Positions 3,478 to 4,037 of a stretch of DNA of 9,554 nucleotides are shown piece after piece. The position numbers and the translations under genes were made by a program. The stretch lies in the IMG/VR virus record IMGVR_UViG_2778261030_000015; one strand, given 5' to 3'. Position 1 is the stretch's first letter. The number at the start of each line of letters is the position of its first letter. The notes under the pieces were generated by a model. That model ran no database searches. It was not told the origin of the DNA and worked only from the letters and a program-made list of their open reading frames with translations. Origin of the DNA: a virus (lineage: Duplodnaviria > Heunggongvirae > Uroviricota > Caudoviricetes).

Positions 3478-3510
3478 GAAAATAAAAACAAAAACCCGCC
3501 GAAGCGGGTT
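3478..3510 (-). terminator. Rho-independent terminator downstream of hokD
   Basis: Minus-strand stem AACCCGC/GCGGGTT with loop TTCG followed by TTTGTTTTTATTTT. Confidence 0.7.
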
Positions 3511-3578
3511 AAGTGCGGGTGCGTTGAGGATGCCTGACACATCAGAGGTGGCGAGGGATTTCTCCCCCGCCTGGTCTC

Positions 3579-3734
3579 TTACTCCTCAGGTTCGTAAGCT
3601 GTGAAGACAGCGACCTCCGTCTGGCCGGTTCGGATTCGTACCTCGCAGAGGTCTTTCCTCGTTACCAGTGCCGTCACTATGACGGTTAAACAGATGACGA
3701 TCAGGGCGATTAACATCGCCTTTTGCTGCTTCAT
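3579..3734 (-). CDS. hokD: Hok/Gef-family type I toxin (HokD/RelF-like, 51 aa)
   Basis: Translation MKQQKAMLIALIVICLTVIVTALVTRKDLCEVRIRTGQTEVAVFTAYEPEE matches my recollection of E. coli HokD. AAGGAG lies 9 nt upstream. An in-frame upstream ATG at 3791 with a GAGG site gives a 70-aa mok-like extension. Confidence 0.9.
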   Translation of the reverse strand: MKQQKAMLIALIVICLTVIVTALVTRKDLCEVRIRTGQTEVAVFTAYEPEE

Positions 3735-4037
3735 AGCCTGCTTCTCCTTGACCTTTCGGTCCGTAAGAGGCAATCTATATGTGACGAGCATATAGGGGCC
3801 TCACTTCGATTTATAGTCGGGTGGGGCTTTTATCTATCTGCCGTTGGTGTTCATGCCCGAGGCAGATAGCCTCAAGCACCCGCAGCAATCCTACTTAACT
3901 CTGCCGTTACAGCAAACCGTTTTCGCCCGATATGGGAATTCCCATATCGGAATGAATTCAGTTCACCTGGCGAGGCTTAGCGTACAATTTTTTCCGTTTT
4001 GTGAGCTGCCCCTACATGCCGCTGGCGCGGCATCCGG

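What the first reader, a model, noticed from the sequence alone, without database searches (positions are those of the whole stretch)
3478..4033. hokD-type toxin locus lacking relBE, with a mok-like in-frame extension and strong palindromic structures upstream
The Hok peptide matches my recollection of E. coli HokD, but the upstream relB-relE pair of the K-12 Qin locus is absent and about 280 bp of structured non-coding DNA sits there instead. That region has an in-frame ATG with a GAGG site 19 codons upstream (70 codons in total, mok-like), a TTGACC -35-like hexamer on the opposite strand at 3748-3753 where a Sok-type antisense promoter would lie, a 9-bp inverted repeat (3834-3842 with 3861-3869), a perfect 24-bp palindrome CCGATATGGGAATTCCCATATCGG (3927-3950) and a GC hairpin (4016-4033). 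This may be an intact hok/mok/sok-type module, a candidate for post-segregational killing or abortive infection.
Basis: partly seen in the sequence, partly recalled or inferred. Interest (0 to 1): 0.5.

Follow-up and report, generated by a model that had tools for sequence, protein, structure and literature searches.

The report
Intact prophage hok/mok/sok toxin–antitoxin module
This is a complete copy of the well-known hok/sok RNA-controlled killer-gene module inside a lambda-like prophage of pathogenic E. coli; the K-12 hokD gene is a cut-down version of it, so the finding is correct but ordinary.

Summary
The main interpretation, an intact hok/mok/sok module, holds. The minus strand 3881→~3487 encodes a full-length hok mRNA. 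It has a 5' tac element, a 3' fbi element, ucb and dcb boxes, an in-frame 70-codon mok, a hok CDS identical in nucleotide sequence to K-12 hokD, and an intrinsic terminator. Rfam family RF01794 matches 3732–3881 at 103.9 bits (threshold 59). K-12 Qin hokD is identical from the hok Shine-Dalgarno sequence downstream, but relE replaces its leader. The experimentally characterised hokW-sokW locus of prophage Sp5 is 86% identical across the whole RNA.

The "structured upstream DNA" has several unrelated origins: the hok leader, the hok promoter, a conserved 24-bp palindrome of unknown role, a Tn3-family transposon end remnant (3966–4013), and the paa 3' region with its terminator. The same sequence occurs in more than 500 complete E. 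coli genomes and in PPompW prophage records, where it is annotated hokD or gef. No transcript or toxicity data were available here. Verdict: already known, low interest.

The parts
3484..3510 (-). Intrinsic terminator of the hok mRNA: stem 3510-3493, then a T-run to about 3484.
   Evidence: Terminator scan. The hairpin folds at -11.8 kcal/mol, z -3.9. It is identical in K-12 Qin.
3517..3529 (-). fbi (fold-back inhibitory element), CCUCAACGCACCC. It pairs with the 5' end of the mRNA.
   Evidence: The MFE fold of the 395-nt RNA pairs nt 1-12 with nt 353-365. Across 8 hok loci this helix is 90.6% paired, with 2 pairs changed on both sides (helix 1).
3579..3734 (-). hok (hokD allele) coding sequence, 51 aa plus stop. 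The Shine-Dalgarno AAGGAG lies at 3749-3744.
   Evidence: ORF list. Pfam PF01848 at 82.9 bits. Nucleotide sequence identical to K-12 hokD. RefSeq annotates it as hokD.
3579..3791 (-). mok reading frame: 70 codons, an in-frame 19-codon extension of hok. SD GAGG at 3802-3799, AUG at 3791-3789.
   Evidence: ORF list and sequence. It aligns with K-12 mokC, Sp5 MokW-like and Rac-SA53 mok. Phage records annotate the same 213-nt ORF as gef or 'phage maintenance protein'.
3732..3881 (-). hok mRNA leader.
   Evidence: Rfam RF01794 at 103.9 bits, gathering score 59, E 2.6e-23. Folds. Pair counts on 8 loci. Element definitions from PMC9841398.
3748..3776 (+). Predicted Sok promoter: -35 TTGACC (3748-3753), 17-nt spacer, -10 CAATCT (3771-3776).
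   Evidence: It aligns column for column with the promoter region of the annotated K-12 sokC (TTGACC ... CACTCT) and with the R1-type TTGCGC-17-TATCCT. It was not picked up by the consensus promoter scan.
3783..3840 (+). Predicted Sok antisense RNA, about 55-58 nt: a single-stranded 5' tail, a GC-rich stem-loop and a U-rich tail.
   Evidence: The K-12 sokC and sokB annotations both map to window 3783-3837. Fold -22.1 kcal/mol, z -4.3. The same architecture appears in 8 loci.
3882..3923 (-). hok promoter region: -10 TAGGAT (3893-3888) and -35 TTTGCT/TTGCTG (3916-3910). The predicted transcription start is G3881.
   Evidence: Conserved with ML35-type prophages and Sp5 hokW (37/42 and 36/42 identical). 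The -10 aligns with TATGAT of the R1-type locus. The start site is inferred from the Rfam model start and the R1 alignment.
3927..3950 (.). Perfect 24-bp palindrome CCGATATGGGAATTCCCATATCGG, centred at -57.5 from the predicted hok start. Function unknown.
   Evidence: It is conserved next to hok in ML35-type prophages and in 78 IMG/VR loci at a fixed distance. It is absent from hokW, Rac-SA53, P1-like and R1 loci. UTAK-3 keeps only half of it. The hairpin folds at -18 kcal/mol on either strand and has no U-run.
3966..4013 (+). Remnant of a Tn3-family transposon end: the last codons of tnpA plus the 38-bp terminal inverted repeat, with its outer end at 4013.
   Evidence: It matches the 3' end of an annotated Tn3-family transposase gene and the adjoining repeat in plasmid pCEA106S_1. 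There is a single copy in the window.
4016..4033 (.). GC hairpin (7-bp stem, 4-nt loop) in the paa-linked segment. It is not part of the hok module.
   Evidence: Read from the sequence. z only -2.3. It lies beyond the point where homology to other hok loci ends, about 3964-3972.
4036..4068 (-). Likely intrinsic terminator of paa: stem 4068-4045, then UCUUUUU.
   Evidence: Inverted repeat I4. Terminator scan. Fold z -2.0, which is weak.
4070..4828 (-). paa, the AcfC-family adhesin or solute-binding-like protein upstream of the module (context only).
   Evidence: RefSeq annotation 'AcfC family adhesin Paa'. Pfam SBP_bac_11 at 118 bits.

Best explanation
Region 3484-3923 is a complete type I toxin-antitoxin module of the hok/mok/sok family. 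It lies between paa and the rem/ydfU/rusA/Q genes of a lambdoid 'PPompW'-type prophage of STEC/EPEC E. coli.

**Inferred mechanism, by homology with plasmid R1 hok/sok and Sp5 hokW-sokW.**
1. A weak promoter (TAGGAT -10) makes a ~395-nt hok mRNA that starts at G3881.
2. This RNA is held inert. Its 5' end (tac) pairs with fbi near its 3' end, and the mok Shine-Dalgarno sequence is sequestered by ucb.
3. Slow 3' trimming removes fbi. tac then pairs with ucb, and the mok SD moves into a stem with dcb. This opens mok, and by translational coupling hok, to ribosomes. It also exposes the target hairpin.
4. A short, unstable antisense Sok RNA (+ strand, about 3783-3840) binds that region, blocks mok translation and triggers RNase III cleavage.
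5. When Sok synthesis stops, Sok decays. This could follow loss of the prophage, transcription shut-off, or prophage induction. The stored mRNA is then translated and the 51-aa Hok peptide damages the inner membrane.

**Shown here:** the sequence elements, their homology and the predicted folds. **Inferred:** transcription, RNA processing, toxicity of this copy in its native context, and the biological role.

K-12 hokD (relF) is a 5'-truncated derivative of this kind of locus, with relBE fused about 15 nt upstream of the hok ATG.
For: **Family matches**
- Rfam RF01794 matches 3732-3881 at 103.9 bits against a gathering score of 59.
- The same family matches R1-type hok, K-12 hokC and hokB, Sp5 hokW, ML35, Rac-SA53 and P1-like loci. 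It does not match the K-12 Qin hokD region.
- Pfam HOK_GEF matches at 82.9 bits.

**Homology**
- Sp5 (VT2-Sakai) mokW/hokW is 85.7% identical over 3923→3507.
- P1-like and IncY plasmid homology is bounded exactly by the RNA, from 3884 to 3517.
- K-12 hokD is identical from the hok SD through the terminator, with relE in place of the leader.

**RNA structure**
- The full-length RNA folds at -166 kcal/mol, z -7.6, with tac-fbi closure and the mok SD paired to GCCCC.
- The RNA lacking fbi forms the tac/ucb stem, and its centroid structure forms the SD/dcb stem. This matches the R1 switch described in PMC9841398.
- Across 8 loci the structure is 84.5% paired against about 40% when slid. 39 pairs change on both sides, against 6-15 when slid.

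**Sok and function**
- The sokC and sokB annotations map to 3783-3837, with a conserved promoter position and a stem-loop plus U-tail.
- hokW-sokW was shown experimentally to be a type I TA system (PMC8621323).
- HokD peptide was used as a known toxic control in preprint 10.1101/2025.08.07.668861.
Against: No transcript, processing or toxicity data exist for this copy.

The Sok -10 hexamer (CAATCT) matches the consensus at only 2 of 6 positions. The consensus scan called neither the Sok promoter nor the hok promoter. However, the annotated K-12 sokC has the same type of -10 (CACTCT).

The structure tested was derived from this sequence's own MFE fold, which favours it over the slid controls.

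[quoted passage not shown] An intact sequence therefore does not guarantee that phenotype.
Confidence: 0.87

Rival explanations
1. The locus is intact in sequence but functionally silent. It would be a hitch-hiking relic that neither kills on loss nor affects phage biology, as reported for the chromosomal hokA, hokB and hokC loci.
For: Preprint 10.1101/2025.08.07.668861 summarises that native chromosomal hokA, hokB and hokC loci did not mediate post-segregational killing and were not rifampicin-activated. The predicted hok and Sok promoters match the consensus weakly. E. coli genomes carry many copies, with a median of 3 places per genome, so the copies may be redundant.
Against: Every regulatory element is preserved, and compensatory changes appear across alleles. 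Paired indels keep both the mok frame and the 17-nt Sok promoter spacing. The 86%-identical hokW-sokW is active and affects phage release (PMC8621323).
Confidence: 0.1
2. The structured DNA upstream of hok is only the 3' untranslated region and terminator of the upstream paa gene. In this reading hokD is expressed by read-through from paa, as K-12 hokD is from relBE.
For: A terminator-like hairpin with a U-run follows the paa stop codon at 4068-4036. The GC hairpin 4016-4033 lies in the segment that travels with paa.
Against: 3732-3881 is a bona fide hok leader. 3882-3965 is shared with prophages that lack paa. A transposon end remnant (3966-4013) separates the two blocks.
Confidence: 0.02
3. 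The module's main role is anti-phage abortive infection: Sok decays after host transcription shut-off by an infecting lytic phage. Prophage maintenance or lysis timing would be secondary.
For: R1 hok/sok on a high-copy plasmid reduced T4 plating by 42% and plaque size by about 85% (cited in PMC8621323). Prophages often carry defence genes.
Against: The Hok survey preprint found no enrichment of hok near defence systems. The only direct study of a prophage hok/sok found a positive effect on the resident phage's release (PMC8621323).
Confidence: 0.2

Closest known systems
hokW-sokW (mokW) of Sakai prophage 5 / phage VT2-Sakai (Takada et al. 2021, PMC8621323)
   Same: Both lie in lambdoid prophages of EHEC and encode a 51-aa Hok with a 70-codon in-frame Mok. 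They are 85.7% identical in nucleotide sequence over the promoter and the whole mRNA. The first 48 nt of the RNA are identical. Both match the same Rfam family.
   Different: The Sok stem-loop is a different, shorter cassette (18/51 identical), and the Sok 5' tail and target loop differ (19/28). The Sok promoter is TTGACC/CAATCT here and TTGCCT/TAACCT in hokW. Neighbouring genes differ (paa upstream and a rem-like ORF downstream here; orf75 and a YgiW/YdeI-family gene in VT2-Sakai). hokW lacks the 24-bp palindrome.
E. coli K-12 hokD (relF) in the Qin prophage, downstream of relBE
   Same: The hok CDS is identical. The 3' UTR (2 mismatches), fbi, terminator and downstream flank are the same, and the position beside rem-ydfU-Q is the same.
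   Different: K-12 lacks everything upstream of the hok SD. It has no mok start, no Sok gene, no tac or ucb and no own promoter, because relE abuts instead. It has no RF01794 match.
E. coli K-12 hokC/mokC/sokC (gef)
   Same: mok is in frame. The Sok hairpin is short. The Sok -35 is the same TTGACC, and the one-base-shorter -10 is of the same type. The annotated sokC maps onto 3783-3837.
   Different: It is a chromosomal, non-prophage locus. The K-12 copy has IS186 downstream and no fbi in the alignment. The toxin differs at several residues.
hok/sok (parB) of plasmid R1 and other IncF plasmids
   Same: All named RNA elements are present and alignable: tac, fbi, ucb, dcb, mok SD and the Sok promoter position. 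The predicted full-length to truncated refolding is the same (PMC9841398).
   Different: The toxin is much more divergent than hokW, hokC or K-12 hokD. For scale, PMC8621323 reports 44% identity between R1 Hok and HokW. R1 has a longer 5' hairpin loop. Its replicon is a plasmid, where post-segregational killing is demonstrated.

Membership tests
hok/mok/sok type I toxin-antitoxin family | Small hydrophobic toxin of the Hok/Gef family | tested here: met
   PF01848 at 82.9 bits, cut-off 22, covering the full 42-position model. CDS identical to K-12 hokD.
hok/mok/sok type I toxin-antitoxin family | Conserved hok mRNA leader and Sok region (Rfam RF01794) | tested here: met
   103.9 bits against a gathering score of 59, model positions 1-157 of 157, at 3732-3881 (-). 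Reference loci score 87-122 bits.
hok/mok/sok type I toxin-antitoxin family | mok reading frame with its own SD that starts upstream of hok and overlaps it | tested here: met
   GAGG, 7 nt, then AUG at 3791. The 70 codons are in frame with hok. It aligns with mokC, MokW and Rac-SA53 mok.
hok/mok/sok type I toxin-antitoxin family | Long-range tac (5' end) to fbi (3' end) pairing that closes the full-length mRNA | tested here: met
   The MFE fold pairs nt 1-12 with nt 353-365, z -7.6. The helix is 90.6% paired in 8 loci, with 2 pairs changed on both sides. This is an in-silico result only.
hok/mok/sok type I toxin-antitoxin family | Refolding after 3' truncation: a tac/ucb stem frees the mok SD, which then pairs with dcb | tested here: met
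   In the fold of 3881→3533, GGG.GCUU pairs with AAGCCCC. The centroid pairs GAGGC (SD) with GCCUC (dcb). Definitions from PMC9841398. This is an in-silico result only.
hok/mok/sok type I toxin-antitoxin family | Cis-antisense Sok gene with its own promoter, a single-stranded 5' tail and a terminator stem-loop, overlapping the mok start region | tested here: inconclusive
   Position, -35 hexamer, spacing, stem-loop and U-tail are all conserved with the annotated sokC and sokB. However, the -10 is weak and the consensus scan made no call. No expression data are available.
hok/mok/sok type I toxin-antitoxin family | Unstable Sok with a stable hok mRNA, RNase III cleavage of the duplex, and killing when Sok is lost | not testable with these tools
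   This needs Northern blots with a rifampicin chase and genetics. It has been shown for the relative hokW-sokW (PMC8621323).
relBE-hokD (relBEF) operon arrangement of K-12 Qin | relB and relE genes directly upstream of hokD | tested here: not met
   No relB or relE ORF is present. Homology to K-12 ends about 15 nt upstream of the hok ATG.
Tn3-family transposon (for segment 3966-4013 only) | 38-bp terminal inverted repeat adjoining the 3' end of tnpA, plus a second repeat and a transposase gene | tested here: not met
   One repeat plus the last tnpA codons match a Tn3-family end. There is no second copy and no transposase in the window. It is a remnant, not an element.

The most novel reading that the evidence does not exclude
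Two related readings are not excluded.

1. The perfect 24-bp palindrome centred at -57.5 of the hok promoter could be a functional control element. It might be an operator for a phage or host protein. It might instead be an RNA hairpin that insulates hok from read-through of early phage transcription. Either would tie Hok expression to the prophage's state.

2. The swapped Sok stem and target-loop cassette could give this copy a recognition specificity orthogonal to the many other hok/sok copies in the same EHEC genome.
Probability: 0.12. Interest if true: 0.4.

Novelty: already known. Interest (0 to 1): 0.15.

Why it matters
The finding matters little beyond correct annotation. RefSeq annotates only the hokD CDS here, and no feature lies under the leader. 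The mok frame and the Sok RNA are therefore missing from the annotation of more than 500 complete genomes of pathogenic E. coli.

The locus also shows plainly that the textbook K-12 hokD/relF is the 5'-truncated form of a complete prophage hok/sok module.

Comparing alleles gives a tidy natural data set for asking how multi-copy hok/sok systems avoid cross-talk. The toxin CDS is nearly invariant, while the Sok recognition region is hypervariable.

Tried and rejected
- **Consensus promoter scan of 3400-4120.** It found neither the hok nor the Sok promoter. Promoter assignments therefore rest on alignment to annotated and characterised loci, not on consensus strength.
- **Palindrome as an immunity-region operator.** Relaxed to 3 mismatches, its 16-nt core has no second copy in the window. 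Rejected.
- **Palindrome as a widespread mobile or regulatory motif.** An exact 20-mer scan of IMG/VR gave at least 120 loci. Of the 120 occurrences examined, 78 lie at a fixed distance from a hok leader and 42 lie elsewhere. The largest groups of those 42 fall inside KilA-N-like ORFs, where the 20-mer encodes DMGIPI. A few are in other, unexamined contexts. I judged the coding cases to be a coincidence of a conserved protein motif.
- **Palindrome as a canonical intrinsic terminator.** The hairpin is strong, but neither strand has a U-run. Variants show no compensatory pattern. Its function remains unresolved.
- **GC hairpin 4016-4033 as part of the hok module.** Rejected. It lies beyond a transposon remnant in the paa-linked block, and its stability is unremarkable.
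- **Literature search for sokD or mokD.** It returned only noise. PMC2593563 is not held, and PMC1635323 does not discuss hokD. I could not read Pedersen & Gerdes 1999. Statements about it come second-hand and from my own recollection.

Full report
**Observation**

- A 51-aa ORF at 3579-3734 (-) and its in-frame 70-codon extension starting at 3791 are in the ORF list.
- GAGG lies 7 nt upstream of that ATG, at 3802-3799.
- TTGACC is at 3748-3753 on the plus strand.
- The 9-bp inverted repeat 3834-3842/3861-3869 and the perfect 24-bp palindrome 3927-3950 were recovered by the repeat finder.
- The 7-bp GC hairpin at 4016-4033 can be read directly from the sequence, but it is not exceptional (z -2.3).
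- No relB or relE ORF is present.

**Where the window comes from**

The 701 bases around the finding are 100% identical to many complete genomes of STEC/EPEC E. coli, including O26, O103, O111, O145 and O157:H7. RefSeq annotates the flanking genes as hokD and paa. The gene order on the minus strand is cI-like/cro-like, replication genes, paa, hokD, rem-like ORF, DUF968 (ydfU), rusA, Q, tRNAs. This is a lambdoid prophage. GenBank phage records call it 'PPompW' and annotate the 213-nt ORF as 'gef: phage maintenance protein'.

**What the locus is**

Rfam family RF01794 ('sok') matches 3732-3881 on the minus strand over the full model, at 103.9 bits against a gathering score of 59. The model runs in the sense of the hok mRNA leader and ends at the hok AUG. 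The same family matches the following loci at 87-122 bits, and it finds nothing at the K-12 Qin hokD locus:
- R1-type hok
- K-12 hokC and hokB
- Sp5 hokW
- an ML35 prophage locus
- Rac-SA53
- a P1-like IncY plasmid locus

The toxin matches Pfam HOK_GEF at 82.9 bits.

A pairwise alignment with K-12 gives the relation to hokD. The two sequences are identical from the hok Shine-Dalgarno sequence (about 3749) through the CDS. There are two mismatches in the 3' UTR, and then identity resumes through the terminator and beyond. Upstream of the SD, K-12 has the end of relE and this window has a hok leader. The K-12 gene is therefore the truncated form, and this is the complete one.

**Boundaries**

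Homology to hokD loci on P1-like and IncY plasmids runs from 3884 to 3517, that is from the RNA 5' end to fbi. Homology to Sp5 hokW runs from 3923 to 3507 at 85.7% and adds the promoter. Homology to prophages without paa (ML35, 14EC047) runs from about 3964 to the terminator and adds the palindrome.

**RNA anatomy**

In an alignment of eight loci, several elements line up:
- the 5' end GGGUGCUUGAGG
- the box GCCUCUUAC
- AAGGAG
- the 3' box CCUCAACGCACCC

The 395-nt RNA (3881→3487) has these predicted properties:
- It folds at -166 kcal/mol (z -7.6).
- Nucleotides 1-12 pair with 353-365, which is the tac-fbi closure.
- The mok SD pairs with GCCCC at 3827-3823, which is ucb.

When the 3' 46 nt including fbi are removed, the 5' end pairs with AAGCCCC instead. 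In the centroid structure the mok SD GAGGC pairs with GCCUC (dcb) at the foot of a hairpin that presents the mok AUG. This is the closed-to-open switch described for R1 hok mRNA in PMC9841398.

Counted across the eight loci, the structure is 84.5% paired against about 40% for slid controls. It has 39 pairs changed on both sides, against 6-15 in the controls. The caveat is that the structure came from this sequence's own fold.

**Sok**

The RefSeq coordinates of K-12 sokC and sokB both map through the alignment onto window 3783-3837 on the plus strand. It is followed by 17 nt and then CAATCT (sokC: CACTCT; hokW type: TAACCT; R1 type: TATCCT).

The predicted RNA has a free 5' tail, a GC-rich stem-loop and a U-rich tail (-22.1 kcal/mol, z -4.3). 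The 5' tail is complementary to the loop CUCGUCA of the target hairpin. From my own knowledge of Franch et al. 1999, that loop contains a YUNR (CUCG) motif of the kind that speeds Sok binding in R1.

The -10 is weak and the consensus scan did not call the promoter. Expression of Sok is therefore inferred, not shown.

**The upstream 'structured' DNA has several origins**
- 3735-3881 is the hok leader.
- 3882-3923 is the hok promoter. Its -10 TAGGAT aligns with TATGAT of the R1 type.
- 3924-3965 carries the palindrome. In ML35-type prophages this block follows the stop codon of a 34-aa ORF.
- 3966-4013 matches the last codons of a Tn3-family transposase gene plus its terminal inverted repeat. 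It is a solitary remnant.
- 4014-4069 carries the GC hairpin and a hairpin with a U-run that is the likely paa terminator.

**The palindrome remains unexplained**

It is centred at -57.5 from the predicted start site. It is conserved at a fixed distance from hok in 78 IMG/VR loci. It is absent from hokW, Rac-SA53, P1-like and R1 loci. It is halved in strain UTAK-3 and imperfect in ML35 and 14EC047, with no compensatory pattern. It forms a -18 kcal/mol hairpin on either strand but has no U-run. It is therefore dispensable for the family. It could be the 3' hairpin of the upstream transcript, an insulator, an operator, or simply a mosaic joint.

**Allelic variation**

Among prophage hokD-type loci the hok CDS is 95-99% identical to the window. 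The Sok stem region is only 18/51 identical, and the Sok-tail and target-loop region is 18-20 of 28 identical. Two compensating single-base indels keep the mok frame open and the Sok promoter spacing at 17. This fits selection for distinct Sok specificities in genomes that hold many hok copies. Fozo et al. counted 14 Hok/Gef genes in O157:H7 Sakai (PMC2887945). The specificity interpretation is an inference. This leader allele occurs at 95% identity or more in about 587 records, essentially the same set that carries the paa junction (573-577).

**Function**

The closest characterised relative, hokW-sokW of Sp5, is a working type I TA system. Its Sok disappears and its Hok appears after mitomycin C treatment in a RecA-dependent way, and deleting the locus halves phage release (PMC8621323). 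R1 hok/sok mediates post-segregational killing and partly excludes T4 (cited there). Native chromosomal hokA, hokB and hokC did not show post-segregational killing (summarised in preprint 10.1101/2025.08.07.668861). Which role applies here cannot be decided from the sequence.

**Verdict**

The family, its prophage members and this exact sequence are all in the databases and the literature. The only unannotated parts are mok and Sok in RefSeq records. Interest is low.

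Noticed in passing
window 1-112: A long poly-C run with stray A's does not match the otherwise identical E2865 reference, which has only about 13 C's before GAAAGGCTCTG. It looks like a homopolymer sequencing or assembly artefact at a contig end.
   Followed up: partly
window 3966-4013: A solitary remnant of a Tn3-family transposon end sits between paa and the hok block. 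It comprises the last codons of tnpA and the 38-bp terminal inverted repeat.
   Followed up: yes
window 3777-3833; loci L005, L009, L010, L133, L134: The hok CDS is nearly invariant among prophage hokD alleles. The Sok stem and the Sok-tail/target-loop segment are hypervariable cassettes. Paired indels preserve the mok frame and the Sok promoter spacing. In UTAK-3, mok ends at a UGA that overlaps the hok AUG instead of being in frame.
   Followed up: partly
window 3594-3596 (-): The Tyr47 codon UAC lies in the context CUUACGAA. The Hok survey preprint reports TadA A-to-I editing (Tyr to Cys) for hokB, and a similar recoding for hokC, hokD and hokE (10.1101/2025.08.07.668861).
   Followed up: no
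window 3441-3470 (-): A sigma-70-like promoter, TTGAAG-18-TAGAAT, lies directly after the hok terminator and upstream of the rem-like ORF 3101-3361. This flank is also conserved in K-12 Qin.
   Followed up: no
window 208-448 (-): Three phage-borne tRNA genes lie downstream of Q: Arg-tct, Lys-ttt and Met-cat. Rfam's gathering search reported only two of them.
   Followed up: no
IMG/VR loci such as L029, L056, L021: The 20-nt palindrome core GATATGGGAATTCCCATATC also occurs inside otherwise divergent KilA-N-like ORFs, where it encodes DMGIPI. This is probably a coding coincidence picked out by exact-match searching.
   Followed up: partly
L005 2574-2678 (ML35) and L006 2572-2676: In prophages without paa, a 34-aa hydrophobic ORF (MSDDISLAMEGALAVVAVVGVYCLVVFLMDRLGN) ends just upstream of the palindrome. 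Only its last few bases survive in the window, at about 3958-3965.
   Followed up: no
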